The notes: generated from the letters alone by a model not told the origin. A stretch of DNA of 64,000 nt from an uncultured Candidatus Saccharibacteria bacterium (GCA_964436545.1 CAYTCJ010000004.1:59368-123367); one strand, 5' to 3'; counted from the stretch's first letter, positions 14,294 to 48,750 are shown. Numbers and translations: made by a program.

Positions 14294-16657
14294 TTACTCG
14301 GTTTTCTTTTTGTAAACTTTTTTAGGTTTGGGCGGATTGGCTAACCAGTGTTTGTAGGCTTCATCGAGCTGTGTTTGGCTTTCTGGTTTTACATTCATTA
14401 CAAAAGTGCAGTCGGGAAAACGCGTGCAAGCAAAGAAGGGTTTGCCCCGACCTCGGGATTTTTTTTCTACCACATCACCCGGTTTGTCTTTGCGAGCATC
14501 GGTCGCTAAACAATTGGGACACTTGTAGCCGGTTTTGTTCCAAATTTTGCTAATGCCTTTACATTTAGGATAGTCCACACAACCTAAGAAAAACCCAAAC
14601 CTGCCCCGCCTTACACCCATTTGTTTTCCGCAAATTGGGCACATTTCGCCTTTGGTCTTTTCTTCCAATTCCTTAATTTTTACTGCTTCTTCGGGCATAG
14701 GCTGGGTAATTTTACTTTCCGGATCCGGACAGGCGAGAAATTTGCCATTCCTCCCGTACTTAATAAGCATCATTTTTCCGCAGTGGGTACAAGGAGTTGT
14801 GGAGACCTCGATTTGTTTTTCTACGGTTTTTTCTTTCTCAATTAAGTGTTGTTTAAAGGGCCCATAAAATTCGTTCATCACTTCCACCCATTTGATTTTG
14901 CCTTCGGCGATCAAATCCAATTCCGCTTCAATGTGGGAGGTAAAATTTATATCTACAATTTCCGGAAAATTTTCCACTAACATATCGTTTACCAAAAAAC
15001 CCTCTTCAGTGGGGGAGTAGCGTTTATCGAGCTTATTGACATAGCCACGGTCTTGAATGGTGGAAAGGGTGGGGGCGTAGGTAGAAGGCCTGCCCACTCC
15101 ATGGGCTTCTAAGGCTTTAATTAAAGTGGCGTCGCTATAGCGAGCCGGAGGTTCTGTAAAATGCTGAAGGGGTAACAGTTCGTGGAGTTTTAATTTTTCA
15201 TCGACCGATAGTTCAGGCAACACCCCTTCGATTTCGTCTTCCGCTTTTTCGTCCGTATCTTCGGTATAGGCGCGAATGAAGCCGTCAAATTTAATAACTT
15301 GCCCATGAGCGCGAAAGAGAAACGCCCCCGGCTTCGCCACCCCCTCTTTGGCCAAAGAGGGGGGAGGGGGAGTTGCCTTTATATCCACGGCGGTTTGTTC
15401 CAAGGTGGCGGGTGTCATTTGGCAAGCAATAGTGCGTTTCCAAATGAGACTGTAAATTTTTTTCTGTCCCGCGTCTAAGTACTGGGCTAGGTCTTCGGGT
15501 TTTCTTAAAACGTCCGTGGGCCTTATGGCTTCGTGCGCTTCTTGGGCGCCTTTGGATTTGTTCGTAAAGTGCCGAGGTTCAGCTAAGGCATATGCTTTCC
15601 CAAAATGACTCTCAATAACTTGTTTTATGGTATCCAGTGCGGATTTAGCTAAGTTCAAACTATCCGTTCTCATGTAAGTAATCAGTCCGGTATGGCCTTC
15701 TTGGCCTAAATTTATGCCTTCGTATAATTGTTGGGCAATGACCATGGTTTGCTTTGCCGACATGCCAAATTTGCGCGCAGCTTCTTGCTGGAGGGTGGAA
15801 GTGGTAAATGGGGCTGATGGGTTGCGTTTCACTTCTTTTTGGGAAATCTCCACCACCTTGTACGTGGCTCCATCTAGGTCTTGAACAATTTTTTTTGCGT
15901 CAATCTCTTTGTTAATATCCATCTTGCCCACAGCTTTTTCGTCGATTTTGTGAAGCTTCGCAGTAAAAACTTTTTTATCATCGGCAGGGGATAATTGAGC
16001 TTCTATGCTCCAGTATTCCTCTTTAACAAATTTTTGAATTTCTCTTTCTCTTTCCACCACCAGTCTTACCGCCACCGATTGCACCCGACCTGCGCTTAAA
16101 CCATAGCGAATTTTTCGCCACAAAAACGGTGACAGTTCATAGCCCACTAACCGGTCGAGCACCCTTCGGGCTTGCTGGGCATCTACTAAATTTAAATCTA
16201 AATCTCGGGGATTTTTTAGCGCTTCGTCAATGGCAGTTTTGGTAATTTCGTGAAAAACAATGCGCTTTATGCGTTTGTCTTCCTTGCCTTTGGCAATTTC
16301 CGCTTCGTCGCCCAAACCTAAAGCTTGCACCAAATGCCAAGAAATGGCCTCGCCTTCGCGGTCTTCATCAGTCGCTAATATAATAGAGGGGGCGGTTTTG
16401 GCGTCCTTTTTTAGTTCCGTAATAATTTCTTTGGCTTTGGGCGGAATAATATAAGTGGGTTCAAAATCCTTTTTAACATCAATAGAAATTTTACTTTTGG
16501 GCAAATCCCGCACATGACCAAAACTGGCCTTGACTGTATATCCATTCCCTAAAAAACGCGAAATGGTTTTCGCTTTGGTGGGGGACTCAACAATAATTAA
16601 AGGTTTGGACATAGGTAAGTGAATAATGCTTAGTGAATAGAGATAAGGATAAAACAT
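14294..16657 (-). CDS. topA: DNA topoisomerase I
   Basis: TOPRIM (LIIVESPTKAK ... LATDEDREGE), catalytic Tyr region (LITYMRTDS) and C-terminal Zn ribbons. The conserved N-terminus starts at the ATG at 16609; the 16657 start adds 16 aa. Contains an in-frame family-B palindrome at about 15338-15378. Confidence 0.92.
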   Translation of the reverse strand: MFYPYLYSLSIIHLPMSKPLIIVESPTKAKTISRFLGNGYTVKASFGHVRDLPKSKISIDVKKDFEPTYIIPPKAKEIITELKKDAKTAPSIILATDEDREGEAISWHLVQALGLGDEAEIAKGKEDKRIKRIVFHEITKTAIDEALKNPRDLDLNLVDAQQARRVLDRLVGYELSPFLWRKIRYGLSAGRVQSVAVRLVVEREREIQKFVKEEYWSIEAQLSPADDKKVFTAKLHKIDEKAVGKMDINKEIDAKKIVQDLDGATYKVVEISQKEVKRNPSAPFTTSTLQQEAARKFGMSAKQTMVIAQQLYEGINLGQEGHTGLITYMRTDSLNLAKSALDTIKQVIESHFGKAYALAEPRHFTNKSKGAQEAHEAIRPTDVLRKPEDLAQYLDAGQKKIYSLIWKRTIACQMTPATLEQTAVDIKATPPPPSLAKEGVAKPGAFLFRAHGQVIKFDGFIRAYTEDTDEKAEDEIEGVLPELSVDEKLKLHELLPLQHFTEPPARYSDATLIKALEAHGVGRPSTYAPTLSTIQDRGYVNKLDKRYSPTEEGFLVNDMLVENFPEIVDINFTSHIEAELDLIAEGKIKWVEVMNEFYGPFKQHLIEKEKTVEKQIEVSTTPCTHCGKMMLIKYGRNGKFLACPDPESKITQPMPEEAVKIKELEEKTKGEMCPICGKQMGVRRGRFGFFLGCVDYPKCKGISKIWNKTGYKCPNCLATDARKDKPGDVVEKKSRGRGKPFFACTRFPDCTFVMNVKPESQTQLDEAYKHWLANPPKPKKVYKKKTE
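15338..15378. repeat. GC-rich palindromic element (family B) in-frame inside topA
   Basis: CCACCCCCTCTTTGGCCAAAGAGGGGGGAGGGGGAG encodes the inserted peptide PPPPSLAKEGV. Confidence 0.6.
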
Positions 16658-16833
16658 TTTGTCTTTGCCTATTCTCTTTTCACTGCTCTCTTGTCGCTAA
16701 TTACAAAAGTGAGTTTAACCATAAAAAAAATAATTGTCAAACAGTAGGGAAAGAAGTATGAATTAGGAATTATGAATTATGAATAGGAAAAAAATAATAT
16801 TGAGGCATTTTACTTTATCATTCGTGTTTTTTC

Positions 16834-16925
16834 TTGTCATTCCCGCGTAGGCGGGAATCCAGTGCTTGTTTGGAAATAGATCCCGGATATTGTTCGGATG
16901 CACTCACAATTCCGGGATGACAACA
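16834..16925. repeat. Family-A palindromic element (two hairpins)
   Basis: GTCATTCCCGCGTAGGCGGGAATCCAG plus ATCCCGGATATTGTTCGGATGCACTCACAATTCCGGGATGACAAC. Termini TGTCATTCCCG / CCGGGATGACA. Confidence 0.5.
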
Positions 16926-16977
16926 GGTTGTGCTTGATTTTTAAAGAGAGAGAGTAGTGTATGGGGGAAAGGAGGTG

Positions 16978-17082
16978 CTGTGAGAAAAGCCTTGAGCCTT
17001 CTCGGTGTTGTCGCTTTTGTTTTGGGCCTTATGGCCCTAGCGTACTACATCGAGATGCCAGCGGGACACCTGCACACTGGGT
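16978..17082 (+). CDS. Candidate small hydrophobic peptide (34 aa), GC-rich
   Basis: Strong SD AAAGGAGGTG 7 nt before a GTG start. Sequence VRKALSLLGVVAFVLGLMALAYYIEMPAGHLHTG, followed by a CCGACG...CGTCGG hairpin and T-run. Lies directly downstream of a family-A palindrome. Not in the ORF track because it is under 60 aa. Confidence 0.3.
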
Positions 17083-17130: not shown

Positions 17131-18426
17131 TTATTTTAAAATTTTTGTATTTATATTAATTTTCTCTAAAATCTTTTGGGTTTCGGTTTCATTGGCTAAA
17201 CGGGGCGTGGAAAAGTTTTCTATTATGACTGGCAAAAGTTCAATGGAGTCGAGTGTGACAGGGGTTTTAGTGCCTTGCAGTTCATTTTGATTTTTGATTT
17301 TTGATATTTGAATTTTCAGTGTCAGTCCCTCTGTGGTTTCTTGGCTCCAGTCTTGGTCAAAAATAAAGTTGCCCAGAGAATAGAAAATGTATTTACAGTC
17401 TTTGCCCCCCTCCCTACCCCTCCCCACGAGGGGGAGGGAACTGGAAGCATTAGCCTCCATCTTGGGGAGTAAATTTTTATTTTCCTCTCCCTTGATGGGA
17501 GGGGTTAGGGGAGGGTGATTGTTGCTATTGGGACAATATTTTTCAATTGTCTGTATCCAATGCGGGTGAGCGCCAATTACCATATCCGCTCCCAAATCAA
17601 TGGCCTTATGGGCAAAATCTATTTGCGCCTTGTTAGGTGTGTATGTATATTCGGTTCCGGCATGCATTGTAGCCACCGTATAATCACACAGGGTTTTTGA
17701 TGTAGTAATGGATAATTTTAAATTTTCCATATCTTCTATTCTCGCTACGTAATCATTATTGCTTTTCCCATTGTCATTGATCGAAGCGTAAGACGCGCCC
17801 ACAAAACAGATTTTTATGCCGTTAGTTTCCACCACTGCCGGTTGCCAAGCTTGACTGAGGTCCAAGCCGGCTCCCACTGTTAAAACATTATTTTGCGTGA
17901 GAAGTTGTTTGGTGAACAGCAGTCCGTCTCGGCCTTTATCTAACGCATGGTTATTGGCTAAGTTGAGAACTTTAAATTTATTTTCCATTAAACCGCTTAA
18001 ACTGGAAGTGGGGGAGGCGAAAATTAGAGCACTGCCCCCAATAATGGGTTTTTCTGAAAAAGGGGTTTCTAAATTCCCAAAATTAAAATCTGTGGAGTTT
18101 AAGAGTGGGGAGAGTCTGGAAAAAGGCAAAAGCGGATTGTTGGCTTGTTTAATTTTTAAAGCAACTTTGCGTGAGAGCATAATGTCGCCCACAGCCAGAA
18201 AGGTCGTTTGAGTTTTTTCTACGGGTTTGTCTTTAGCAAGCGTTTGGGCTTTATTATAAAAAGCCCAAAGTTCGTTTTCGGCTGTTTTGGATAGTGCTAC
18301 GGTTTTAACATTGGGATGATTGATGCTGTAAGTTTTTTCTTTACGTTGCATTAAGCCTAAAGCTATGGCCAAAGCAAACAGGAGAGGAAGAATAAATTTT
18401 AAATATTTAGAGGGTATAAATTTCAT
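17131..18426 (-). CDS. CapA-family metallophosphoesterase (poly-gamma-glutamate synthesis-type)
   Basis: LAVGDIMLSR, ADMVIGAHPHW and YSLGNFIFD motifs. Carries two in-frame family-B palindromes (17405-17440 and 17484-17515) giving an about 45-aa insertion. Confidence 0.72.
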   Translation of the reverse strand: MKFIPSKYLKFILPLLFALAIALGLMQRKEKTYSINHPNVKTVALSKTAENELWAFYNKAQTLAKDKPVEKTQTTFLAVGDIMLSRKVALKIKQANNPLLPFSRLSPLLNSTDFNFGNLETPFSEKPIIGGSALIFASPTSSLSGLMENKFKVLNLANNHALDKGRDGLLFTKQLLTQNNVLTVGAGLDLSQAWQPAVVETNGIKICFVGASYASINDNGKSNNDYVARIEDMENLKLSITTSKTLCDYTVATMHAGTEYTYTPNKAQIDFAHKAIDLGADMVIGAHPHWIQTIEKYCPNSNNHPPLTPPIKGEENKNLLPKMEANASSSLPLVGRGREGGKDCKYIFYSLGNFIFDQDWSQETTEGLTLKIQISKIKNQNELQGTKTPVTLDSIELLPVIIENFSTPRLANETETQKILEKININTKILK

Positions 18427-19839: not shown

Positions 19840-20451
19840 TTAATTTTGTAATTTTGTAATTTTGTAATTTTTAAAATCAAAAAATTGATTTATTTCAGTT
19901 TTTATTTGAGGAAAAATATCCGCTTGTAGTTTTTGCATTTCATCAGCTGTGAAATTTTGGAGCACAAAAGCTTCGGTGGGTAAATCAGTTTTGGCTTGTC
20001 TGGTTTCCACGCCAACTCGGATGCGGTGGAAATTTTGGGTACCTAAGTGGTCTATAATGTCAGCTACGCCATTATGCCCGGCGGAAGAAGCCGAGGCAGT
20101 GGTTTTCAGTTTGCCCAAAGGCAGGTCAATATCATCGTGAATGACCAATAAATCTGTTTGTGTATTAAGTTTATAAAAATCCGTAAGGGTTTTAACGGCT
20201 TGGCCGGAAAGATTCATAAAAGTTTGGGGTTTGGCAAAAAGGAAATAACTCCCCCCGTCCCCCTCTTTGGAAAAGAGGGGGAGTGAGGCGGAGTGAGGAA
20301 CCTCTAAAATTTCCGAAGCGAATTTTTTTTGCCACTTCCCATTTGTAAATCCTAAATCTGCCATTAACCAATCTAAAACCATCCAGCCTACATTGTGGCG
20401 GGTACTTTTATATTTTTCTCCCGGATTGCCCAGTCCAACAATTATTTTCAT
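19840..20451 (-). CDS. pth: Peptidyl-tRNA hydrolase
   Basis: MKIIVGLGNPG ... TRHNVGW ... FMNLSG ... GHNG motifs. Carries an in-frame family-B palindrome (20251-20298) encoding LPLFSKEGDGGSY. Confidence 0.9.
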   Translation of the reverse strand: MKIIVGLGNPGEKYKSTRHNVGWMVLDWLMADLGFTNGKWQKKFASEILEVPHSASLPLFSKEGDGGSYFLFAKPQTFMNLSGQAVKTLTDFYKLNTQTDLLVIHDDIDLPLGKLKTTASASSAGHNGVADIIDHLGTQNFHRIRVGVETRQAKTDLPTEAFVLQNFTADEMQKLQADIFPQIKTEINQFFDFKNYKITKLQN

Positions 20452-20466
20452 AGAGTTCGTTAAAAC

Positions 20467-20538
20467 ATTCTAACATTTTAACATACTAACATTTTAACAT
20501 TCTAACATGCTAACATCTTAACATTCTAACAATATTCA
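20467..20538. repeat. Tandem 8-bp repeat (NNTAACAT) x about 9 upstream of pth
   Basis: TAAAACAT TCTAACAT TTTAACAT ACTAACAT TTTAACAT TCTAACAT GCTAACAT CTTAACAT TCTAACAA. Confidence 0.8.
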
Positions 20539-20562
20539 TAATTCAACTTCATACCTCTATTC

Positions 20563-23501: not shown

Positions 23502-23744
23502 AACTTTACTATTATATCTAATATCATTAAAATAAGCTATACGGTATGACTTGCTTTATGAGGTTTAGAATGGTATTATTTTGACACACTGCAAAGATTT
23601 TAAAGTATAAAAATTGGATAAATTAGGGTGAGGCGAGACGTAAAATTAATATCAACTGGTTATCTGCCTCTACCAGTCGGTAGACAGGTGCCGGCAGGCA
23701 GGGAGCGTTGCATTTTCACCCCGTTAAATTATTTGGTCGTATAG

Positions 23745-27006: not shown

Positions 27007-27108
27007 ACTAAATGGCAAAAATTAAAAAATGACAAAATTGACAAAAATAACCGCAGTTTAATTTTTTGTTCACTTCCGTCGTTTTTGTCATTTTTATTTA
27101 CTTACAAA

Positions 27109-29505: not shown

Positions 29506-29635
29506 AATACGGATAGGGGAATCATAACTCCCCCTACCCCCTCTTTGGAAAAGAGGGGGGAAGAGAGGAATAAAAATGGAATAGCTATTGCATGGGGCAA
29601 ACAGACAAGCCCCCAATGCAGAAAGGAGCACAAAA

Positions 29636-30769: not shown

Positions 30770-31078
30770 CCGGCGGCCAAGAAGGCGCCGGCGAAAAAAG
30801 AAAAAGAAGAAGAAAAGGAGGAAGAAGGAGAGGTCTAACCTTTCCCCCTACGCATAGCCAGTGCAGGCTATGAGTAGGGTAACAACCAAGCATGGGGGAT
30901 TTGTGCACTCAAATCCCTCCAGTTCTTTCTTTCTGTTTTGGGTAGTTTTTACCCCCTCCCTTAACCCTCCCCACAAGGGGGAGGGAAAAAGCAGGGTGAA
31001 TACCACCCCCTCCGATTAACATTGGAGAACATCTCCTATTTTAGGAGGAGAAGAGAAAGAGGGAAATGGAGAAAAATC

Positions 31079-31611: not shown

Positions 31612-31864
31612 AAGGATAGAAAAAATTATGTTTATTATATTATATCAAGTTATTGAATTTTTGGAAATATACAGCTAAAATATAATGCGGTTTTTTGGTG
31701 GGTAGCTTTTTTTACCCCCTCCTTCCGATGTGTATCGGAAGACTCCCCCTATGTTAGGGGGAGAGGGGAGAAGAGAGGTACCCGGCAAGAAAACGCGGTA
31801 CAAGTGTCCCTTGCCGGGATGCGAAAAATTTTGAGGAGGAAAAATATCAATTGCAAGATGATAG

Positions 31865-31913: not shown

Positions 31914-32027
31914 GAAAATCATAACCCCCTCCTAACCTCCCCTTCCGCCAGAGGCGGACAGGTATCTTAAGGGGAGGAAGAAGAGAGAAAAACCGGATGA
32001 GCAAGAAAGGACATTTTTTGTCATTCC

Positions 32028-34407: not shown

Positions 34408-34443
34408 ATTGGTTCACAGATCATGGATTTACACAGATGTTAT

Positions 34444-34480: not shown

Positions 34481-34602
34481 TAAAAACAGATTGCAGATAA
34501 TTTATATGACATATTAGACCTATAAGTCGCATTATCTTTATCATTTGACACAGAAAAAAAACAGTGTCATAGTAATTAAAAATAAGCGAATGAAATAAAA
34601 AT

Positions 34603-34932: not shown

Positions 34933-34952
34933 GTATAGTCAAATAAATTATA

Positions 34953-34980
34953 GATTCCGCATCAAGTGCGGAATGACAAA
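34953..34980. repeat. Family-A palindrome overlapping the start of the giant ORF
   Basis: GATTCCGCATCAAGTGCGGAATGACAAA. Confidence 0.55.
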
Positions 34981-34983
34981 CCC

Positions 34984-37900: not shown

Positions 37901-40311
37901 AGAGAATATCTCCAACGTTAAGAGAAAATCCAGATGCTATTTTAGATTTTAATAGAGAGATGGATTGGTACATTTCTAATCTTGAAAATCAAAACCCAGA
38001 ATACGCAGATGAATTAAGAGAGTTAATGCAACAGCCTGATATGTTAATTCCAATGTCTAATGAATGTAAGGCTGTTGCTTGCATTCCAGTTTATGCTTTA
38101 GGTGAGGGAAAAGGTATAGAACACACTCTTGAACAGTATAGGAAACAAATTATAAATGGTTCGGTAAAATCTGATGAATTTGAGTTATTGTTATTCTTGA
38201 ACCATCCACAAGATAGACTTAAAGGTATGACTATTTTATCTGGGGCAGAAGAAAGAGTTAGAAATGGGAATCCGGAAGCGTATGACACAGCTGAGGTGAT
38301 TAGGCAGTATAAACTCAAGCATCCTGAATTAAAAATTAGAGTACTAGAAAAAGAATACGAAACCAGACCAAAGTGGGGAGTAATAATTAAATCAGTTTAT
38401 GATGTTGCTTGTTTAAGGGCTAAGTCGCGTTCCAATCCAGTAAGTAAGGATATAGTTTTACTTACAAATGATGCGGATGTGAGAGATATGTCCGATACGT
38501 ATTTAAGATTAGTCATTGATGAGTTTGATAAAAGTGATGGTAGTAAACAGATTGATGGGTTAGCTACTAGAATGGATGATGACCCCAATGTTTATAGAAA
38601 ATGGCCAAATTTCTTTTTGGCAAATCGTTTTCGTCAATTTCTTGAAGCTCAAACCAGAGCAGGCATAAGTGGTTCTGGGGAAATAAATTCATTACCTTAT
38701 AATTTCTCATCCCGTGGTTCAAAAGAAAAGTATATTAATACTTGGGGCGCCAGTACGGCTTTGAGAGGTAGTACGTATTGTGGGATAGGCGGGGCAGATT
38801 TGAGTGTAGATGCAGGGGCCGATTCTGAGTTAGGGAGAGTAATTACCAATTCCAGAAGAGGTGGTAAGAGAAAATTAGATAATGCAAATTTTCCCATAAA
38901 GTTTTTGAATTCCGCATGGCTTGAGACAGACCCTAGAAGGCCGTTGGGGATTTATAAGAAAGGTAAGCCATTAGTAGCTACTTGGAGCGAATGGGATGAA
39001 ATGAATGTTTATGGAGAGACTCTTGCAGATCAGAATGAAGGCGATTCAGAAGCTTTAGATCCGGTAAGACTTTCCAAAGAAATAAACGTCATGATGAAGT
39101 CATGGTGGGGTTTGGATGCTGATTCAATGGTTGTTAAAAAAGCATTAGGCTGGTTAGGATTAAAAGAAGGTGATTATGATATCGTGGATATTGGATATAC
39201 AGATAGGGTAGGTGTTCAAAAAACTTACAGAGGAATCAAAATTAATAATATTTCGAATTTAAAGACTGGAGTAGATGCTTGGAAAACCAAGCGGGAAAGA
39301 CTTGATGAGGCGAAAGCAAATCGTTTGAAAAAAGCTCAAGCGGTGAAAAGTATTGGACAAGCATCAACCCCTTCAAACCCAGATAATGGCAAAATATGGG
39401 ATGAAGAAACTTTTAGATTTATTGAACCTCAGCCGGAAGCGCCAATTAATCAAACCACAGAAGATGATGATTTGTGGGATGATGAAGGTAATAGGCCTGT
39501 GCCCAAAAATTTAAAATCGGGTAAGCTTCCTTCTGTGGCTAGTGAGCCTAGCAGACTGCCAGAAAGCGGTGGAAATACTAAACCGGTTGAGTCAGGGCCT
39601 GGCAGGGGAGCAAACGAGCCAGTACAATCAGCTCAAAGAGAAGCTCCGGCACCCAAAGCTGAACAAGGTAATGTGAGAGAAAGAGAATCTAGGGAAACCA
39701 AAATGATTGAGCTATTAAATGCTTTTGATGCCAATCCTTATGAATTTATTTATGACAAAGGATTAGCAAGAGTTAGCGAAGCCGGGTTTAGCACCAATAG
39801 GTTTTTAAAAGAATTAAGACTTCAACATGGTATCAGTAATGCCGATTTGGCAACCATAAAACAAAGAACTAGAGTTATGAGTCCCAAAGGTCCAATAATG
39901 GGGAAAGGCAGAGAAGTGGCGCAATATGCAAGGATGATTTTAGCCACTAAACCCGAGATGCGTGCACAATGGATAGGATTGGATGACGGAAGGTATAATA
40001 AATTTTCTAAGGAGTTGATTGTTGCGGAAGTAAAAAAAGATATTAGCCAAAAAACTTTTAATCCAGATAAGATTGTAGAGTTAGAAAGGGAATTCGCACA
40101 AGGGCCGATTTTTGTGCTGGACAGTGTTTTGTCGGCTAATCCGGCTGTGTTAAGAAAAGCTAATGAGGCTTTTAAACAGGCAATAAACAATGGCGAAGCG
40201 CAAGATAATTCAGATGATAAAGCTAGAGTTTTTAAAACTACCTTAGACGCATACCAACAAGGTTCATTAAAGCTTACCAAGCAACGAGGCAGAAAAAGCC
40301 AGAAAAAATAG
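34984..40311 (+). CDS. Giant (1776-aa) membrane-anchored protein of unknown function; possible GT-A-like central domain
   Basis: Continuous ORF. K/E-rich coiled-coil N-terminal third; two TM helices around aa 300-350 (TAAVTAAYFV ... GLVGFGVGAGATAAF). Central segment with IPVYALGEG ... LLTNDADV, reminiscent of nucleotide-sugar transferase IPVYN/DxD motifs (weak). Alternative GTG start at 34966. Confidence 0.7.
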   Translation: MSEYGRFLSPEARHEAEKPKFVFTDISDIQEGMAQDASLAQFNEKPEALEENNVSWWKKPFKKAFWKNVGKRGTSLGRSIWKQNLARDYYEVSGKKQAEAKMQASGSLFAVEKKFDPNEPGISEAEKQNRLKAQKTAHDEYVSAITRRFAGATGELAGDFVHKEHGGEAVETLGRTEAEVQIKRKLEETVRAFAGGEISEEQVLEKEKAIWAEIKGVKPEVVKKGKMYASNLLEMAKWAKEEVEKQVRQNIDHNLAVRNLQLDFDVVVGRAKSGAKTEAQFNAVENAVDKIMAKTRGLPSIIFNEATITAAVTAAYFVEKSLFTKGLYSVAGLVGFGVGAGATAAFKEGKTLEKERMQHAREMAQGRKFEESSATRRKELEKFRLKFQTAEELEQNLDAKLFNFLESGTDLRTLSPEGYKQALEAVAEIDARILEGERGVVVKKRKWLKFWKKEYKEERHSADLIGYSDPTQIAKEEGQLDMARAAAKIALKKWCLANGKTEAQFKADLQASVEAKIHGFYAGEEGIDKQNERFKEFKKKKMWQAGKKAAVWGTIFGTAIQEASAFKQDHTYGLAEHAWDAFRGNEHHLAPEETATALENAFAYGQKNINEGLDYLFPTAHAAGPNIEVQIGGSKYSLPDGFRLEDNPATANPNDKVLIDSKGVSHTLEFKADGTPTADSKKWLLDNGYKLDEIISPAGPKGIHSLDVDATKKQFPDLAHHTRIDWHDEPGKFKSAIHNMWLEFEGKQQMGYLVTRGDKVYLDCSKVIQNFVKEVSERINDPSFGQVEGYTNADGSPFVDSKMMHLKDQIQQAINNGDINRYFQAVVIPTEGANSAGLSDLVQGADSSGLIELNGKYDWSKMFIDPATGHVDPKMLHDGHLPFRFLEMRFDGHVMNTAQGAGEAGPMPFFKLTPPLDELPPTTFPPLTYVGRRKGLEETNWTPPPQRPKREPLPEIPYYGYYNSPERSEYYRQRISPTLRENPDAILDFNREMDWYISNLENQNPEYADELRELMQQPDMLIPMSNECKAVACIPVYALGEGKGIEHTLEQYRKQIINGSVKSDEFELLLFLNHPQDRLKGMTILSGAEERVRNGNPEAYDTAEVIRQYKLKHPELKIRVLEKEYETRPKWGVIIKSVYDVACLRAKSRSNPVSKDIVLLTNDADVRDMSDTYLRLVIDEFDKSDGSKQIDGLATRMDDDPNVYRKWPNFFLANRFRQFLEAQTRAGISGSGEINSLPYNFSSRGSKEKYINTWGASTALRGSTYCGIGGADLSVDAGADSELGRVITNSRRGGKRKLDNANFPIKFLNSAWLETDPRRPLGIYKKGKPLVATWSEWDEMNVYGETLADQNEGDSEALDPVRLSKEINVMMKSWWGLDADSMVVKKALGWLGLKEGDYDIVDIGYTDRVGVQKTYRGIKINNISNLKTGVDAWKTKRERLDEAKANRLKKAQAVKSIGQASTPSNPDNGKIWDEETFRFIEPQPEAPINQTTEDDDLWDDEGNRPVPKNLKSGKLPSVASEPSRLPESGGNTKPVESGPGRGANEPVQSAQREAPAPKAEQGNVRERESRETKMIELLNAFDANPYEFIYDKGLARVSEAGFSTNRFLKELRLQHGISNADLATIKQRTRVMSPKGPIMGKGREVAQYARMILATKPEMRAQWIGLDDGRYNKFSKELIVAEVKKDISQKTFNPDKIVELEREFAQGPIFVLDSVLSANPAVLRKANEAFKQAINNGEAQDNSDDKARVFKTTLDAYQQGSLKLTKQRGRKSQKK

Positions 40312-40340
40312 GAAATAAGGGAATTAATATGTTCGGTTCC

Positions 40341-40367
40341 AAACCCCCCGATATTCTCGGGGGGTTT
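40341..40367 (+). terminator. Intrinsic terminator after the giant ORF
   Basis: AAACCCCCCGATATTCTCGGGGGGTTT plus a T-run. Confidence 0.55.
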
Positions 40368-40418
40368 GGGTTTAAATTTGGCATTTTTTACTTTTGTGCT
40401 ATACTGATTTTATATAAA

Positions 40419-40586
40419 GGGTCTGTTTCCAAATGTCATTTTGTCTGCAACTGTAAAATTTTGGCTACTTGTCACAAAAAATTTTTCCGCTTATCCTACG
40501 GATAAGCATCAAAATTTATTTGTGCCAATTTGCTCTAATTTAATAGTTTCGTCTTAAAAGCACATTCGGAAACAGACCCAAAACAA
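40419..40586. repeat. About 168-bp element bounded by 18-bp inverted repeats upstream of ftsZ
   Basis: GGGTCTGTTTCCAAATGT ... ACATTCGGAAACAGACCC. Internal CTTATCC-TAC-GGATAAG hairpin. Confidence 0.4.
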
Positions 40587-40685
40587 ATATCAAAATAAAA
40601 AATCAATCGTTTGTATTTTAAGGTTAACCTTTCAACACGTTTGATTTTTTGTTTGATTTAATTTATTCTGAAATTATCAACTAAA

Positions 40686-41912
40686 ATGAAATCACAAAAT
40701 CGTATGGGAGAAGTTAAACCAAAAGTTCAAAGTTTTGCCAGAATTAAAGTTTTAGGCGTGGGCGGGAGTGGCACCAGCGCTGTTAACCGTATGAGCGAAC
40801 TCGGCATTAAAGGCGTAGAATTTATTGCCATTAATACCGATGCGCAGGCTCTGCATAATAATAATGCAGATGTAAAAGTGCATATTGGGAAAAATATTAC
40901 CAAAGGTCTAGGCAGTGGCATGAATCCGGATTTAGGTCGGCAAGCGGCGGAAGAAAGCATTGAGGAGCTGGAGGAAGTGGTAGACAATGCCGATATGGTG
41001 TTTATCACTTGCGGGCTAGGGGGCGGAACCGGCACCGGAGCTTCGCCCATTGTCGCGGAGCTCGCTAAGAATAAAGGCGTCTTAACCGTTGCAGTCGTGA
41101 CCCGTCCGTTTACTTTTGAAGGCAGTAAAAGAAAAGAAGTGGCCGATGCTGGCTATGATAATTTAAAAGATAAAGTCGATGCCATTATTGCCATCCATAA
41201 CGATAGGATCCTGCAAATTATAGACAAGAAAACTTCACTCATAGATTCGTTTAAAACCGTAGACGAAGTTTTAAGGCAAGGCATTTCCGGTATTTCGGAT
41301 TTAATTACCACACATGGTTTGGTGAATGCTGACTTTGCCGACGTGCGTGCCATTATGCAAGACGCGGGCACAGCCATGATGGGGATTGGGCGAGCGAGTG
41401 GCGAGAACCGTGCGAGCGAAGCTGCGAAGCTCGCGGTAAATTCTCCGCTGTTAGATATGTCCTTAGACGGCGCAAAAGGAGTACTCTTTAATATTACCGG
41501 CGGAAAAGATTTGGGTATGTTTGAAATTGACGAAGCCGCGAAAGTGATTACCAAAAATATTGACTCCGATGCCAAAGTTAAGTTTGGCGCGGTGATAGAT
41601 GAAAACTTAACCGATGAAATTAAGATCACGGTCATTGCCACGGGCTTTGATGGCAACAATCGTTTAAGTGGTATGTCGCCCATAAGTTTTGATGAACCCA
41701 AAAAAGGTTTTTTGGGCACAGGCAATTTTAGCGCTCAACCCCAGAGCCCTCCGCAAACTGCGGTGGAATTAAGACGACCACTTTTTAACCCTAAACCAAT
41801 TGAACCTAAACAACCCCCAGTCATTCAAACTACTCAACCGACAGAAAATTTAAATGCAGATAACGAAGACGAATTGGAAATCCCGGCGTTCATTAGAAAG
41901 AAAATGAAGTGA
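40686..41912 (+). CDS. ftsZ: Cell-division GTPase FtsZ
   Basis: Tubulin signature GGGTGTG (GLGGGTGTGASPIVAE), T7 loop, and a variable C-terminal linker with conserved tail. Confidence 0.95.
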   Translation: MKSQNRMGEVKPKVQSFARIKVLGVGGSGTSAVNRMSELGIKGVEFIAINTDAQALHNNNADVKVHIGKNITKGLGSGMNPDLGRQAAEESIEELEEVVDNADMVFITCGLGGGTGTGASPIVAELAKNKGVLTVAVVTRPFTFEGSKRKEVADAGYDNLKDKVDAIIAIHNDRILQIIDKKTSLIDSFKTVDEVLRQGISGISDLITTHGLVNADFADVRAIMQDAGTAMMGIGRASGENRASEAAKLAVNSPLLDMSLDGAKGVLFNITGGKDLGMFEIDEAAKVITKNIDSDAKVKFGAVIDENLTDEIKITVIATGFDGNNRLSGMSPISFDEPKKGFLGTGNFSAQPQSPPQTAVELRRPLFNPKPIEPKQPPVIQTTQPTENLNADNEDELEIPAFIRKKMK

Positions 41913-41980
41913 GGCGGAGAAAGTTGTAAGTTGGTAAGTGAGTAAGTTGTAAGTAGTAGAGTTCTAAGTAAACAAAGAAT

Positions 41981-42337
41981 ATGATAATTAAGTCATTTAC
42001 AGAAATTATTGCTTGGCAAAAATCTCACCAATTAGTTTTAGATGTTTATATTTTAACATCAGAGTATCCAAAACACGAGATGTTTGGTTTAGTCAGTCAG
42101 AGTCGTAGGTGTGCGGTATCTATTCCTTCTAATATTGCGGAAGGTTTTAAGAGAAAATCGCTTAACGATTCATTGCATTTTTATAATATCGCGGAAGCGT
42201 CATTAGAAGAGCTAAAGTATCAACTTTTACTCGCTAAAGATTTAAAATACGTTTCAGAATTTAAATATCAAAAAGTTTTTGAACTATGTGAGGAGGTTGG
42301 AAAGTTAATTTATGGTTGGATAAAAATTCAAAAATAA
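41981..42337 (+). CDS. Four-helix-bundle protein (TIGR02436 / '23S rRNA IVS protein' family)
   Basis: IPSNIAEGFKRKS hallmark motif. The gene is bracketed by inverted GTAAGTTG-word arrays (41915-41960 and 42340-42375). Confidence 0.7.
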   Translation: MIIKSFTEIIAWQKSHQLVLDVYILTSEYPKHEMFGLVSQSRRCAVSIPSNIAEGFKRKSLNDSLHFYNIAEASLEELKYQLLLAKDLKYVSEFKYQKVFELCEEVGKLIYGWIKIQK

Positions 42338-42728: not shown

Positions 42729-43166
42729 ATGCAAGAGTTTTTAACCGAAGAAACGCCGGGCAAGGTAATGGCTTTATTAGGAGGTACATTATTTTCTCTC
42801 GCGTTGTTATTTGCTGTGAATGTAAGCGGAGCCAGTTTAGGTGGCAGTACGGAATATGCTTTGCCCGATCCGTTTGCGCCAGCTAAAGTTGTTAAGGCCA
42901 TAGATAATTTTTCCGCTTGGTATAGTAGCGGACTGGTGGCTTTTGCCGAGCCAGCCACAGAAGCAGTGAAGGCTCATACCGAAGCCATGGCTTGGGCTAT
43001 GGACGAAGCCAGTGTGCCTTTAGTGAGAGTTTTGGGTCTGGAGAGTTTGACTGAATATGAGAGTCAACCTCAAGTAGCCGGAGTTAGCACTAAAGCAAAT
43101 TTTGGTTTTTTAGGTTTTGGGAGTTTAAGTGTGGATCATTTATATAGTTTAATGTTAGGGGAGTAG
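42729..43166 (+). CDS. Hypothetical exported protein
   Basis: N-terminal hydrophobic segment. Followed by the hairpin AAACGCCC...GGGCGTTTTT at about 43258-43300. Confidence 0.45.
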   Translation: MQEFLTEETPGKVMALLGGTLFSLALLFAVNVSGASLGGSTEYALPDPFAPAKVVKAIDNFSAWYSSGLVAFAEPATEAVKAHTEAMAWAMDEASVPLVRVLGLESLTEYESQPQVAGVSTKANFGFLGFGSLSVDHLYSLMLGE

Positions 43167-43332: not shown

Positions 43333-44220
43333 TTAGAGTTCGCTACCCGTGATGAGGCGGTACGCCTCACGATACTTCTCGCTGGTGCGCGCGACCACGT
43401 CGTCCGGCAGCCCCGGCGCCGGCGGTTGCTTGTTCCACCGAATCTCTTCCAAATAATCGCGAACGAACTGCTTGTCGTAGGAGGGTTGTGGACCGCCTGG
43501 CCGGTACGAATCGGCGGGCCAGAAGCGCGACGAATCGGGCGTGAGCACCTCGTCGGCGAGCACGAGTTCATCGCCCACGAATCCGAACTCGAATTTGGTG
43601 TCGGCTAGCAGAATGCCGCGCGAAGCGGCGTACTCGGAGGCTTTGCCGTAGATCCGGAGCGTGAGATCCCGCAGACGGGCTGCAGTTTCGGCGCCCGTGA
43701 TCCGCTCCACCTGCTCGAAGGGAATGTTCTCGTCGTGACCGCTTTGCGCCTTGGTGGCGGGTGTGAAGAGCGGTTGCGGGAGACGGTCGCTTTCGACCAG
43801 ACCGGCGGGGAGCGGAATCCCGCAGACCGAACCTTGGGCCTTGTACTCCTTCCAGCCGGAGCCCGCCAGATTGCCGCGCGCCACGCATTCCACGTCGATC
43901 ATCTTGGCGCGGCGGACCAGCATGGAGCGGCCCTCGAGCTGATCGCGGAACGGCTGGAGTTCCACCGGATATTCATCGACGTTCGCGGTGAGGAAGTGGT
44001 TCGGGACGACGTCGCGGAGGAAGTTGAACCAGAACATCGAGATCCGCGTCAGCACGCTGCCCTTGTCCGGGATGCCGGTCGGCAGGATGTAGTCGAACGC
44101 GGAGATGCGGTCGGTCGCGACGATGAGCAGGTCTGCGCCGACGGCGTAGTTGTCGCGGACCTTACCACGCCCGATCAAATCAATTCCGGGCAGACTTGTT
44201 TCTAAAAGGACATTACTCAT
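43333..44220 (-). CDS. purC: Phosphoribosylaminoimidazole-succinocarboxamide synthase (SAICAR synthetase), GC-rich, apparently acquired
   Basis: GKVRDNY, LLIVATDRISAFD and LADTKFEFG motifs. True start is MSNVLL with RBS AAGGAGG. About 62% GC versus about 40% host. The tracked ORF's N-terminal extension into AT-rich DNA is rejected. Confidence 0.85.
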   Translation of the reverse strand: MSNVLLETSLPGIDLIGRGKVRDNYAVGADLLIVATDRISAFDYILPTGIPDKGSVLTRISMFWFNFLRDVVPNHFLTANVDEYPVELQPFRDQLEGRSMLVRRAKMIDVECVARGNLAGSGWKEYKAQGSVCGIPLPAGLVESDRLPQPLFTPATKAQSGHDENIPFEQVERITGAETAARLRDLTLRIYGKASEYAASRGILLADTKFEFGFVGDELVLADEVLTPDSSRFWPADSYRPGGPQPSYDKQFVRDYLEEIRWNKQPPAPGLPDDVVARTSEKYREAYRLITGSEL

Positions 44221-44428
44221 TTGTAATGTCCTCCTTTCTTTTTGATTTCTCCTCCGTAGGAGATGACTTAGGATAACAAAGTAAGGGGGGATTGTAAAGG
44301 CAGAAAAGTTAATAAGTTTATAAGTAGTAAGTTGTAAGTAAAAAGCAATCAGTAAATAATTCAATTTTGTTTGGGGATAAGTGGGCGGGGGTTTTTAAAA
44401 AATTTAGGTTTTCGCGGGTTTGCACGTA

Positions 44429-44569: not shown

Positions 44570-45016
44570 ATGCGTTGTCCTAAATGCCAATTTGCAGATA
44601 CTAAAGTTTTAGACTCCCGACCAGTGGAAGAGGGCGAGGCAATTCGGCGTCGGCGGGAATGCGAAAAATGCGGATTTAGGTTTTCTACCTATGAAGAAAT
44701 AGAAATCTTAGATTTAAACATTTTAAAAAAGGACGGTCGGAAGGAATTGTTTAGTAAGGAAAAATTAGAGCGGGCCATACGGTTGCCTTTAGCTAAACGT
44801 CCGCATACTGACGAAACCTTTAGGAAATTGCTGTCATCAATTGAGATTGAAATTCAGCAAAAGGCTAATAACGGGGAAATAAAAAGTTCGGAAATTGGGG
44901 AAATTGTAATGAAGAAATTAAAAAAGGCCGATAAGGTCGCGTATGTGCGGTTTGCAGCCGTGTATAGACAATTTGAAGATGTAGAGGAGTTTAAGGAAGA
45001 ACTCAAAAAGTTGTAA
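44570..45016 (+). CDS. nrdR: Transcriptional repressor NrdR
   Basis: MRCPKCQ ... CEKCGFRF zinc ribbon plus ATP-cone. Confidence 0.93.
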   Translation: MRCPKCQFADTKVLDSRPVEEGEAIRRRRECEKCGFRFSTYEEIEILDLNILKKDGRKELFSKEKLERAIRLPLAKRPHTDETFRKLLSSIEIEIQQKANNGEIKSSEIGEIVMKKLKKADKVAYVRFAAVYRQFEDVEEFKEELKKL

Positions 45017-45292
45017 GTTGGTAAGTTGCCTGCCTGACGGCAAGGCAGGTAAGTAGTAAGTTGGTAAGTTGTAAGTCAATCAGTAGACAGCTCATCAGCA
45101 AAGAATAAAGCAAACAGCGATTAGGTATTAGTTGTAGAAACCGGTCGGGTGTTAAGTAAGTGGTGGTAAGTCATTTAAAATCAATAAACTTATGACTATT
45201 TTCTATACCGGATTCTATAATTTTAAACTTATAACAAAACTGAATTTAAATTTATTTAAAAATTAAAAATTTGTAATTAAAAATTTTATTCT

Positions 45293-47968: not shown

Positions 47969-48053
47969 AGCGTAGCACTATATTATTCTCCCCTGGCGAG
48001 GGGAGATGTCCTGAAGGGACAGAGAGGTGGTTGGTCATCAAGTTATAAAATAA

Positions 48054-48086
48054 GGCGTCCCGACGGCCGTCGGGACGCCTTTAAAA
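48054..48086 (+). terminator. Intrinsic terminator after nrdJ
   Basis: GGCGTCCCGACGGCCGTCGGGACGCCTTT. Preceded by a family-B-like hairpin TCTCCCCTGGCGAGGGGAGA at about 47987-48006. Confidence 0.5.
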
Positions 48087-48090
48087 AAAT

Positions 48091-48750
48091 ATGAGAAGAA
48101 AAAAGATAACCATACCGCAGGAGTTTAGTAGTGAACCTAGGGGTTTAGTGATTGCCTATTTAGGCGCCGGCAAAGGGAAGACCACAGCTGCTATGGGTAT
48201 GGCCATAAGAGCTTCGGGAGCTGGGATGAATGTCTATATTTTGCAGTTTGTAAAAGCCAAAGGCGCATCAGTAGATAAAATAAAAGACGGGGAATGGCCG
48301 GTAAGTAGTGAAATAGATTTTTTTAATGCAATGGGCTCATATCACCCCCCAGCCCCCTCTTACTTTAAGAGGGGGGAGGGCCAAATTGGCAAAATTGAAA
48401 ATGAACAATTGGGTTTGGGTTTTGTTGGGATTTTGGGGGATAAAAAACAAAAGGCTATTCATATTAAAGCCGCAATCGATGGTTTATCCCGCGCCAGAGA
48501 AATTATCACTTCCGGTGAATATCAAGTAATTATTTTAGATGAAATCATTTCAGCTTTGGAAAGTCAGCTAATAGAAGAGCGGGATATTATTGATTTAATT
48601 CAACTCAAGTCGCCACTTCAGCATTTAGTCTTGACTGGGCATAATAAATATCCTAAGCTGTTAAAATATTGCGATTTAGTGACGGAAATGAAAATGGTTA
48701 AGCATCCTTACTATAAGGGAATTTTGGCACAGAGGGGGATAGACTATTAA
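48091..48750 (+). CDS. Cob(I)alamin adenosyltransferase (CobO/BtuR-type)
   Basis: P-loop GAGKGKTTAA ... QFVK and C-terminal LDEI ... VLTGHN ... DLVTEM ... KHPY. Carries an in-frame family-B palindrome at 48345-48380. Confidence 0.8.
   Translation: MRRKKITIPQEFSSEPRGLVIAYLGAGKGKTTAAMGMAIRASGAGMNVYILQFVKAKGASVDKIKDGEWPVSSEIDFFNAMGSYHPPAPSYFKRGEGQIGKIENEQLGLGFVGILGDKKQKAIHIKAAIDGLSRAREIITSGEYQVIILDEIISALESQLIEERDIIDLIQLKSPLQHLVLTGHNKYPKLLKYCDLVTEMKMVKHPYYKGILAQRGIDY

What the first reader, a model, noticed from the sequence alone, without database searches (positions are those of the whole stretch)
15338..48380. GC-rich palindromic elements (CCCCCTC-TTTGGAAAA-GAGGGGG family) inserted in-frame inside conserved housekeeping genes
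Near-identical hairpin-forming elements occur within topA (15338-15378, giving PPPPSLAKEGV), pth (20251-20298, LPLFSKEGDGGSY), capA (17405-17440 plus 17484-17515, about 45-aa insert) and the cobalamin adenosyltransferase (48345-48380, PPAPSYFKRGEGQ). They also occur in intergenic DNA (29527-29568, 30952-30990, 31715-31790, 31920-31990, 47987-48006, 51328-51358). The reading frame is preserved in each host gene. This parallels Rickettsia palindromic elements, which create new peptide loops in proteins, and is rare outside that group.
Basis: seen in the sequence. Interest (0 to 1): 0.78.

Follow-up and report, generated by a model that had tools for sequence, protein, structure and literature searches.

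The report
Tiny hairpin repeats inserted inside essential genes
A family of 35-65-base GC-rich hairpin repeats has been copied, in frame, into surface loops of essential genes of an ultra-small (CPR, Doudnabacteria) bacterium, much like the palindromic elements of Rickettsia, and the same repeat turns up in many other uncultivated bacteria and some viral contigs.

Summary
CCCCTC-loop-GAGGGG hairpins occur 8 times in the window against 0.02 expected by chance. Nine sites belong to one repeat family with two sub-families. Five lie inside four intact genes (topA, pth, capA twice, cobO). Four lie in an island between ftsA and ftsZ. Three other listed or similar hairpins (47988, 51322, 63038) look like ordinary terminators.

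Orthologue comparisons show lineage-specific insertions in variable loops. A related genome carries the same element at a different TopA site that is empty in the window and 44 other orthologues. Pth carries elements of different orientation or sub-family at one loop in three lineages.

The full unit is AACTCCCCC-(2-3 nt)-CCCCCTCTTT-loop-AAAGAGGGGG, sometimes with a small third hairpin and GGGGG(A/C)GTT. Its 5' half hits at least 120 metagenome contigs (GC 26-66%) and 7 viral contigs. About a fifth of those copies lie in frame inside long ORFs.

The best reading is a REP/MITE-like, currently or formerly mobile hairpin element. Its pyrimidine-only and purine-only arms cannot encode stop codons, so in-frame copies survive in loops. 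The mobilising enzyme is unknown, and neither target duplications nor a transposase were found. It is an RPE-like phenomenon but not an RPE: a new variant of a known kind.

The parts
15321..15374 (-). Full sub-family A element (54 nt) inside topA. It has an outer stem AACTCCCCC/GGGGGCGTT, an inner palindrome CCCCCTCTTTGG/CCAAAGAGGGGG, and a small third hairpin GGC-GAA-GCC. It encodes TPPPPSLAKEGVAKPGAF.
14294..16657 (-). Host gene topA (787 aa, intact). The insert sits in a variable loop after QTAVDIKA.
17395..17535 (-). 141-nt insert in capA (CPNSNN...GGKDC, net +45 aa against the Y-NG-KY form). It holds two sub-family B units head to head, a REPIN-like doublet.
17484..17517 (-). capA unit 1 (CACCCTCCCC-TAA-CCCCTCCC-ATCAA-GGGAGAGG), head first in the coding direction. 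A public assembly breaks and turns chimeric exactly here.
17405..17438 (+). capA unit 2 (CCCCCCTCCC-TA-CCCCTCCCC-ACGA-GGGGGAGGG), head first on the + strand, which is reversed relative to the gene.
17131..18426 (-). Host gene capA (PGA_cap family, 431 aa, intact).
20247..20298 (+). Sub-family A element inside pth, reversed relative to the gene. It encodes HSASLPLFSKEGDGGS. The inner hairpin is perfect and the outer 3' arm is decayed.
19840..20451 (-). Host gene pth (203 aa, intact). The insert covers residues 53-68, a low-confidence loop between strands 46-52 and 69-75.
48343..48380 (+). Diverged sub-family A element inside cobO. The inner stem CCCCCTCTTA/TAAGAGGGGG carries a compensatory T-A to A-T change. 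It encodes HPPAPSYFKRGEGQ.
48091..48750 (+). Host gene cobO (cob(I)yrinic acid a,c-diamide adenosyltransferase family, 219 aa, intact).
29526..29568 (+). Intergenic sub-family A copy. Its inner hairpin is identical to that of the pth copy.
30951..30991 (+). Intergenic sub-family B copy (ACCCCCTCCC-TTAA-CCCTCCCC-ACAA-GGGGGAGGG).
31714..31778 (+). Intergenic composite copy. An extra hairpin (TTCCGAT-GTGT-ATCGGAA) is nested between the head and the inner hairpin.
31923..31987 (+). Intergenic composite copy. An extra hairpin (CCGCC-AGA-GGCGG) is nested in the loop of the inner stem CCTCCCCTT/AAGGGGAGG.
51322..51360 (.). Not a family member. This perfect 17-bp hairpin is flanked by A and T runs between convergent genes and is probably a bidirectional terminator. 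The same applies to 47988-48005 and 63038-63065.

Best explanation
The sites are copies of a REP/REPIN- or MITE-like family of very small (35-65 nt) palindromic DNA elements.

Anatomy. The basic unit is a head (G)AACTCCCCC plus 2-3 nt, followed by a hairpin whose 5' arm is pure pyrimidine (CCCCCTCTTT) and whose 3' arm is pure purine (AAAGAGGGGG). Fuller copies add an optional small third hairpin and a closing arm GGGGG(A/C)GTT that pairs with the head.

Spread. Copies are, or were, spread to new sites by an enzyme supplied in trans. This is inferred. The likely route is a single-stranded hairpin intermediate handled by an HUH-type nuclease or transposase, because no target duplication is seen. 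That step is speculative.

Survival in genes. Pure-pyrimidine and pure-purine arms cannot contain a stop codon in any of the six frames. Such an element can therefore land in a gene without truncating it. Selection then keeps only copies whose net length change preserves the frame and that fall in permissive surface loops. There they add Pro/Leu/Ser...Lys/Glu/Arg/Gly peptides that are probably neutral passengers.

Shown: family membership, hairpin anatomy, presence/absence among orthologues, independent insertions at the same loops, wide distribution, and stop-free arms.

Inferred: mobility as the process, translation of the inserts, neutrality of the peptides, and the enzyme.
For: 1. Non-chance, multi-copy family in the window.

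2. The same element occurs at non-homologous sites and in both orientations.

3. Filled versus empty sites. The TopA of locus L003 carries AACTCCCCC...GGGGGGAGTT (SPASGTPSLTKEGDGGS) at a site that is empty in the window and 44 other orthologues. The window's TopA element is an exact 54-nt, in-frame addition.

4. Pth carries elements at one loop in the window (reversed, sub-family A), in L003 (forward, variant stem CCTCCTCTTA/TAAGAGGAGG) and in L002 (sub-family B). These are independent events.

5. The CapA insert holds different numbers and types of hairpins in each genome.

6. PurH of Doudnabacteria ranges from 525 to 613 aa, with at least 6 variable insertion hot spots.

7. Of 135 metagenome hits to the 5' half, 124 have the complementary 3' arm, although that arm was not part of the search. 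Of these, 31 also have the outer arm and 93 are singlets. Inverted doublets also occur.

8. The optional third hairpin keeps its stem through compensatory changes: GCC/GGC, GGC/GCC, GCGGC/GCCGC, GCGAC/GTCGC, GTCCTTCC/GGAAGGAC.

9. 28 of 139 metagenome copies lie in frame in ORFs of at least 280 aa, and four of those genes are recognisable by eye as CarB, PurH, PurA and PrmC. The peptides recur, for example NSPFPLFSKEGVPKAGAF, which matches the window TopA type. Every frame is used except the one where the spacer reads TAA or TAG.

10. Host GC ranges from 26 to 66%. One host is Doudnabacteria and another is clearly not CPR. Viral contigs also carry full copies.

11. The inserts map to loops.

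12. An independent assembly reproduces the pth and capA copies at 99.98% identity and turns chimeric at the capA repeat, as expected for dispersed repeats.
Against: - No target-site duplication is visible at any clear boundary.
- No transposase, RAYT or IS200-like gene was found in the window or in about 2 Mb of fetched loci. This test was weak, because the query was recalled from memory.
- No autonomous parent bounded by the same terminal repeats was found.
- No within-population presence/absence polymorphism was seen; two assemblies agree.
- The CapA inserts share flanking Cys codons, which suggests one origin. Yet they are scattered on both the TopA and the CapA trees, which requires several losses or exchange between lineages. 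This is unresolved.
- CobO has no clean empty site in its closest relative.
- The 19 nt of the head and 5' arm used as the search pattern occur unchanged in hosts of 26-66% GC. In addition, about 20% of copies abut a start codon with the G-run placed like a Shine-Dalgarno sequence, against 11.75% for a loose control. Both facts could point to a selected cis-function rather than purely selfish spread.
Confidence: 0.7

Rival explanations
1. The hairpins are primarily functional cis-elements in RNA or DNA, such as 5'-UTR hairpins that present or mask a Shine-Dalgarno-like G-run, mRNA stabilisers or terminators. They are kept by selection, and the intragenic copies are by-products.
For: 28 of 139 metagenome copies have an ORF start 0-12 nt outside the AACTCCCCC end, giving GGGGGAGTT-N-ATG, against 11.75% for a loose random control. 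REP sequences are known to act as mRNA stabilisers or attenuators (PMC2229807, PMC3733652). The 19 searched nucleotides recur unchanged across hosts of very different GC content. Hairpin stems are kept through compensatory changes.
Against: A regulatory function does not explain copies in the middle of topA, pth, capA, cobO, PurH or CarB in either orientation. Most copies are not next to starts. Family copies have no T-run, so they are not intrinsic terminators. None of the four intergenic copies in the window abuts a gene start. A function of this kind is compatible with mobility rather than an alternative to it.
Confidence: 0.15
2. The copies arise without a dedicated transposase. Replication or repair template switching copies an existing hairpin repeat from elsewhere in the genome into breaks or stalled forks at microhomology.
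For: No target duplications, transposase or autonomous element were found. Insertions are often accompanied by small losses of host sequence: the L003 TopA element is 55 nt but the net gain is 45 nt. New hairpins are nested inside the loops of older ones.
Against: The element ends are sharp and conserved in many unrelated contexts and hosts, and position -1 prefers G. That pattern fits recognition by a protein better than random template switching. Spread across phyla needs a vehicle.
Confidence: 0.1
3. The peptide segments are ancient, native features of these proteins, and the DNA similarity is convergence from Pro/Gly-rich coding.
For: Several related orthologues have similar peptides at the same loops (Pth P0009, P0008; TopA L022, L024; CobO P0260, P0251).
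Against: Most orthologues lack the segments, as do all solved structures that aligned (Pth, TopA). At the shared Pth loop the DNA elements differ in orientation and sub-family. The same sequence occurs in intergenic DNA and in unrelated genes.
Confidence: 0.03
4. The in-gene copies are assembly artefacts: repeat-induced misjoins in a metagenome-assembled genome.
For: One public contig (L001) is chimeric exactly at the capA repeat.
Against: The pth copy and the first capA unit are identical in two independent assemblies. All host ORFs stay in frame and align with orthologues on both sides of the insert. Related genomes from other studies show the same phenomenon.
Confidence: 0.02

Closest known systems
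Rickettsia palindromic elements (RPE)
   Same: Both are dispersed palindromic repeats with terminal inverted repeats. Both occur in intergenic DNA and fused in frame inside conserved, functional protein genes, adding loops on the protein surface. Target duplication is unclear for both (PMC2229807, PMC10969869).
   Different: RPEs are 105-150 bp, belong to about ten families and are specific to Rickettsia. The elements here are 35-65 nt, GC-rich in a 40% GC genome, and built of pyrimidine-only and purine-only arms. They occur in CPR bacteria and many other uncultivated lineages. Sequence relationship to RPEs was not tested.
REP sequences and REPIN doublets mobilised by RAYT (Y1 HUH) transposases
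   Same: Both have a 20-40 nt GC-rich imperfect palindrome preceded by a short conserved head. Both occur as singlets and as inverted doublets that fold into a larger hairpin. Neither shows target duplication, and both reach high copy number (PMC3116915, PMC3337134, PMC3733652).
   Different: REPs carry GTAG or CGTC tags and are by definition extragenic. Here the head is (G)AACTCCCCC and a fifth or more of the copies are intragenic. No RAYT gene was found in the DNA available.
Other bacterial MITEs with in-frame intragenic copies (ERIC, the 107-bp Correia/NEMIS form, YPAL, Coxiella QMITE)
   Same: [quoted passage not shown]
   Different: Those elements are 100-170 bp, usually with TA duplications and identifiable IS relatives. 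Their fusions mostly affect hypothetical or accessory genes rather than several essential housekeeping genes in one 64-kb stretch.
Very small dispersed repeats (SDR) of Nostoc and other cyanobacteria (recalled from Elhai et al. 2008, not read here)
   Same: Both are 21-27 nt hairpin-forming mobile repeats with nested insertions, living in genomes whose intergenic DNA is rich in heptamer tandem repeats. This window also shows such tandem repeats.
   Different: The sequences and hosts differ. The comparison rests on memory only.
Mitochondrial GC clusters and byp elements of yeasts (recalled from memory)
   Same: Both are short GC-rich palindromes that invade AT-rich genomes, including coding regions.
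   Different: byp elements are skipped by the ribosome and need not be in frame. Here every intragenic copy is in frame and stop-free, which argues for normal translation.

Membership tests
Rickettsia palindromic elements (RPE) | Palindromic repeat with terminal inverted repeats that folds into a stem-loop | tested here: met
   Two-tier hairpins, mostly -10 to -21 kcal/mol. The outer arms AACTCCCCC/GGGGG(A/C)GTT are present in 31 of 135 copies.
Rickettsia palindromic elements (RPE) | In-frame fusion inside conserved protein genes that stay intact | tested here: met
   topA, pth, capA and cobO in the window; PurH, CarB, PurA and PrmC elsewhere.
Rickettsia palindromic elements (RPE) | Length 105-150 bp and membership of one of the Rickettsia-specific sequence families | tested here: not met
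   The elements are 35-65 nt. The host is Candidatus Doudnabacteria. Sequence comparison with RPE consensus sequences was not run.
REP / REPIN | Short GC-rich imperfect palindrome with a conserved head on one side; singlets and inverted doublets | tested here: met
   93 of 135 copies are head-plus-hairpin singlets. Doublets occur in L106 and L177 and in the capA of the window and L025.
REP / REPIN | GTAG or CGTC tetranucleotide tag at the head | tested here: not met
   The head is (G)AACTCCCCC.
REP / REPIN | Extragenic location | tested here: not met
   5 of 9 window copies and at least 28 of 139 metagenome copies are intragenic.
REP / REPIN | A cognate RAYT (Y1 HUH transposase) gene in the same genome | tested here: inconclusive
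   tblastn with an IS200 TnpA sequence recalled from memory found nothing in about 2 Mb of loci. Whole genomes were not available.
MITE | Terminal inverted repeats | tested here: met
   9-10 bp terminal repeats in full copies.
MITE | Target-site duplication flanking the element | tested here: not met
   No direct repeats are seen at the boundaries of the window TopA, L003 TopA or symmetric metagenome copies.
MITE | A parent insertion sequence with the same ends | tested here: inconclusive
   Pairs of ends 120-8000 nt apart occurred in only five loci; of these only part of L109 was read and none was checked for an enclosed transposase. Only a few kb per locus were searched.
Intrinsic terminator | GC-rich hairpin followed by a T-run at a gene 3' end | tested here: not met
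   Family copies lack T-runs and lie inside genes or upstream of them. The feature holds only for 51322-51360, 47988-48005 and 63038-63065, which are excluded from the family.
Integron attC site | R''(RYYYAAC)...R'(GTTRRRY) core sites at cassette ends next to an integron integrase | tested here: not met
   AAC and GTT are the outermost bases here, not the inner ends of 7-nt core sites. No integrase domain was found among the ten proteins scanned between 27.6 and 48 kb; the short island ORFs 41981-42337, 42729-43166 and 44570-45016 were not scanned.

The most novel reading that the evidence does not exclude
This is a horizontally spreading family that crosses phylum boundaries, and the smallest mobile DNA known to colonise proteins. 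It is an ORF-neutral hairpin of about 45 nt with one pyrimidine arm and one purine arm. An HUH-type (Rep/RAYT-like) enzyme would move it, possibly carried by phages. It would be a major source of loop insertions and protein length variation in the tiny, gene-dense genomes of CPR bacteria. It would also supply ready-made 5'-UTR hairpin plus Shine-Dalgarno modules in front of genes.
Probability: 0.3. Interest if true: 0.8.

Novelty: new variant of a known kind. Interest (0 to 1): 0.65.

Why it matters
In-frame colonisation of essential genes by palindromic repeats has been treated as a peculiarity of Rickettsia. This window shows the same process, with far smaller elements, in a CPR bacterium whose genome is small and about 84% of the window is ORF.

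The same element is present in contigs from many environments, with GC from 26 to 66%, and in some viral contigs. If this holds up, it has several consequences.

- It gives a simple rule for how selfish DNA can live inside genes: arms made only of pyrimidines or only of purines cannot create stop codons.
- It explains much of the unexplained length variation and the odd Pro/Gly-rich loops in CPR proteins.
- It warns annotators and structure predictors that such loops are repeat-derived.
- It warns assemblers that contigs break or turn chimeric inside genes.
- It offers natural insertion-tolerance maps for TopA, Pth, PurH and other enzymes.

Tried and rejected
- rRNA operon. The GC-rich stretch at 29.5-34.5 kb was suspected to be an rRNA operon. 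Rfam at gathering threshold found only two tRNAs.
- Rfam with relaxed thresholds. The search over 29.0-34.6 kb gave only sub-threshold chance matches and no known RNA family.
- Literature. Searches by topic, by element sequence and by encoded peptides found nothing on such elements in CPR or Patescibacteria.
- Transposase search. tblastn with an IS200 TnpA sequence recalled from memory, and with the HUH Rep found next to the L108 copy, found no further homologues in about 2 Mb of loci.
- Autonomous parent. A search for a parent element bounded by the same ends found no evident candidate among the few end pairs returned, which were not followed up for enclosed ORFs. The two L174 copies (not among those pairs) are read as an inverted duplication of a gene plus its upstream region, from the DNA sequence alone.
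- attC-like reading. Rejected on the geometry of the ends.
- Extending the source contig. Exact-protein look-ups failed four times.
- Formal covariation test on the inner stem. Not run, because every way of collecting copies selected for paired arms. Only the third hairpin, which no search selected for, was used as evidence of compensatory change.
- Trees. NJ trees could not decide whether the CapA insert was gained once and lost several times or gained repeatedly.

Full report
**Source and context**

The window has about 40% GC. Pth and PurH homologues carry the name Candidatus Doudnabacteria. The best TopA loci come from Doudnabacteria or Patescibacteria MAGs. The organism is therefore a CPR bacterium. 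An identical Pth is on record on a 128.9-kb NCBI contig. The region around the finding is syntenic with a related MAG (L003): lytR, der, pth, dprA, capA, topA.

**The observation**

Every stated site exists. CCCCTC-N3-20-GAGGGG occurs 8 times against 0.02 expected from shuffles. The repeat finder groups the copies at 15333, 20252, 29530 and 48346; the 29530 copy is 93% identical to the pth copy. A profile built only from metagenome copies finds the same four window sites, with E-values from 4e-12 to 5e-4. I call these sub-family A.

A sister sub-family B has the form ACCCCCTCCC-T(T)AA-CCCTCCCC-loop-GGGGAGGG. It accounts for the two capA units and for 30951-30991. The copies at 31714-31778 and 31923-31987 are composites with an extra small hairpin nested inside.

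All sites fold as DNA hairpins. Three hairpins lie just after gene 3' ends: 47988-48005, 51322-51360 and 63038-63065. They lack the head and outer arm of the family. The one at 51322 is a 17-bp stem flanked by A and T runs between convergent genes. I read these three as ordinary terminators. A scan for paired pyrimidine and purine tracts found no further intragenic copies.

**Anatomy**

The 5' half, AACTCCCCC-N2-3-CCCCCTCTTT, was used to scan metagenome contigs. Of 135 usable hits:

- 124 carry the complementary arm AAAGAGGGGG 1-6 nt further on, although that arm was not part of the pattern;
- 93 stop there, as head-plus-hairpin singlets;
- 31 continue to a closing arm GGGGG(A/C)GTT that pairs with the head.

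Between the inner hairpin and the closing arm there is either a 2-4 nt spacer or a small third hairpin. The stem of that third hairpin changes by compensatory substitutions. The forms seen are TGCCGAAGGC, AAGCGGCGAAGCCGCA, AAGCGACGAAGTCGCA and AAGTCCTTCCGCGGAAGGACA; the window topA copy has TGGCGAAGCC.

Inverted doublets with two inner hairpins inside one outer stem also occur. Examples are L106, L177 and the capA inserts of the window and L025. Position -1 is G in 47% of copies, and the preceding four bases are A/T-rich. No direct repeats flank the element.

**Are the in-gene copies insertions?**

*TopA.* L003 TopA, which is 76% identical to the window protein, has 15 extra residues (SPASGTPSLTKEGDGGS) after YWSIEAKLSKN. 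They are encoded by a complete element. The window and 44 other orthologues have none there.

The window's own element is an exact 54-nt unit after QTAVDIKA. Most orthologues are short at this loop, and it is a gap against solved TopA structures 6ozw and 3px7. L022 and L024 carry LPS(I/L)xSAKE(G/E) at the same loop.

*Pth.* Only four of 33 orthologous loci have an insert: L002, L003, L004 (a second contig carrying the same Pth as L003) and L025. The window makes a fifth. The closest orthologue lacks it (69% identity by BLASTP; 74% in alignment A1). At the DNA level the window copy is reversed sub-family A. The L003 copy is forward with a compensated stem, CCTCCTCTTA/TAAGAGGAGG. The L002 copy is sub-family B. 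These are independent events at one permissive loop.

Solved Pth structures show a 12-14 residue gap there. An AlphaFold model (mean pLDDT 83.7) places residues 53-68 in a low-confidence loop between strands 46-52 and 69-75.

*CapA.* Twelve of 20 sequences read IExY-xG-KYIFYSLGNF. Eight have 26-48 extra residues bounded by Cys codons. Each insert holds a different set of small hairpins. The insert-bearing forms are scattered on NJ trees of both TopA and CapA. One origin with several losses or exchange, or repeated gain, cannot be told apart.

*CobO.* The element lies in a segment between WPxSGE and GxGFVGI that many orthologues lack. The closest homologue (P0241, 61% identity by phmmer) has a diverged segment of equal length. 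P0260 and P0251 carry other element-like peptides there. This is the least clean of the four cases.

**Beyond the window**

Of 139 metagenome copies, 48 are spanned by an open frame of at least 100 codons, and 28 lie inside ORFs of at least 280 aa. Judged by eye from their sequences (no family search was run on them), the hosts include CarB, PurH (two copies), PurA, PrmC, a restriction-modification methylase, a PKS-like protein and an RND adaptor.

The encoded peptides recur according to orientation and frame:

- LPLTPSLxK(E/R)G
- TPPxPLFxKEG
- NSPFPLFSKEGVPKAGAF, the same type as the window TopA
- PSLxKRGxGGV
- PPLFYKEGDRGSS

In-silico translation of three consensus forms shows that stops arise only in the spacer or the loop, never in the arms. 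This follows from composition, because every stop codon needs both T and a purine.

PurH of Doudnabacteria ranges from 525 to 613 aa, with at least six variable insertion hot spots. Some carry peptides of other repeat families, such as SPFMG...DKSGNY.

Host loci with bona fide copies have 26-66% GC. The L173 host is Doudnabacteria. The L167 host has 66% GC, and its best named hits are Zixiibacteriota and Phycisphaerales, so it is not CPR. Seven IMG/VR contigs match the pattern. Three of them hold full elements, and one copy appears from a by-eye translation to lie in frame in a viral ORF.

Among 80 TopA loci from species representatives, C/T-arm hairpins of this type were found in about a dozen loci. 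They were densest in the window (13 per 64 kb) and L025 (6 per 18 kb). The sub-family A profile scored below E 0.01 only in the window, L003 and L018.

**How it most likely works**

The data fit a REP/REPIN- or MITE-like element that is copied to new places. It persists in genes only where it is in frame, stop-free and in a loop.

Mobility as a process is inferred from three things: filled/empty sites, independent insertions at one site, and nested copies. The enzyme is unknown. The absence of target duplications and the head-plus-hairpin design are what single-strand HUH transposases (RAYT, IS200/IS605) use. However, nothing of that kind was found in the available DNA.

One copy in a 26% GC contig (L108) lies 155 nt upstream of a CRESS-like HUH Rep gene, next to a tyrosine integrase. 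No second such case was seen. This is a lead, not evidence.

About a fifth of copies abut a start codon so that GGGGGAG sits where a Shine-Dalgarno sequence would be. That is 28 of 139, against 11.75% for a loose control. A cis-regulatory side role for intergenic copies is possible.

**Comparison with known systems**

Functionally this is the RPE phenomenon: palindromic repeats fused in frame into conserved genes (PMC2229807, PMC10969869). It is not an RPE by size, sequence family or host.

Architecturally it is closest to REP and REPIN elements (PMC3116915, PMC3337134, PMC3733652). It fails two defining features of those: the GTAG/CGTC tag and the extragenic location.

I found no description of such elements in CPR bacteria in the searchable literature.

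**Verdict**

The finding is a new variant of a known kind. Interest is moderate to high because of the extreme smallness of the element, its stop-proof design, its recurrence in several essential genes of a minimal genome, and its apparent spread across very different hosts.

Noticed in passing
window 28900-40700: ftsA (27644-28900) and ftsZ (40686-41912) are separated by an island of about 11.8 kb. It holds three ORFs lying in the GC-rich 30-34 kb stretch (52-58% GC in 2-kb windows) of a 40% GC genome: 29636-30769 and 32234-32968 have no Pfam match, and 33368-34144 is a trypsin-like peptidase. It also holds a DUF5663 ORF and a 1781-aa ORF with no Pfam match. Four of the nine element copies sit here. 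This is probably acquired DNA.
   Followed up: partly
window 29466-29524, 31078-31257, 31860-31911, 33043-33094, 34300-34501: AT-rich repeats built from heptamers (TACAGAT/TACGGAT and ACGAATG units; families D3, D6 and D11) bracket each GC-rich ORF of the island, giving it a cassette-like layout.
   Followed up: no
window 20456-20541, 16745-16797, 27025-27051, 41919-41967, 45007-45112, 48747-48791, 58391-58443: Many intergenic spacers consist of degenerate 7-9 nt tandem repeats: AACATTNT about ten times upstream of pth, plus GTAAGTT, ATGAATT and TGACAAAA. Their function is unknown.
   Followed up: no
window 32075-32100 and 33270-33300; L001 6245-6275: A second palindromic repeat type, GGATTCCCG-N-CGGGAATGAC, is present. 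Related ..CCGGAATGACGG.. sequences directly precede the AACTCCCCC head in a dozen metagenome contigs, which suggests larger composite repeats.
   Followed up: partly
window 43333-44364 (- strand): The SAICAR synthetase gene shows many 30-nt windows of at least 70% GC, unlike its neighbours. This is probable horizontal acquisition.
   Followed up: no
window 23673-23712 and 23863-23919: The sequence GCCGGCAGGCAGGGAGCG occurs on both sides of tRNA-Val (23771-23847).
   Followed up: no
L001 5973-6365: A public Logan contig matches the window at 99.98% identity up to the capA repeat. It then continues into unrelated DNA through another copy of the element. This is a repeat-induced chimera inside a gene.
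   Followed up: yes
L108 2709-3500: In a 26% GC contig the element and several other GC-rich hairpins lie just upstream of a short CRESS-like HUH Rep gene (PF02407; motifs VTFNL, HCHMFFH, YCIK), next to a tyrosine integrase. This may be a rolling-circle or integrative element that uses such hairpins.
   Followed up: partly
alignment A4 (PurH of Doudnabacteria), columns 600-650: Another recurrent repeat-derived peptide family (VVAPFMGxxxxPDKSGNY, RPFMGN...DKPAS) is inserted in PurH of several genomes. More than one repeat family therefore colonises proteins in this lineage.
   Followed up: no
window, all nine family copies: Seven of nine copies have the head on the + strand, which also has positive GC skew throughout the window. 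The numbers are too small to test a replication-strand bias.
   Followed up: no
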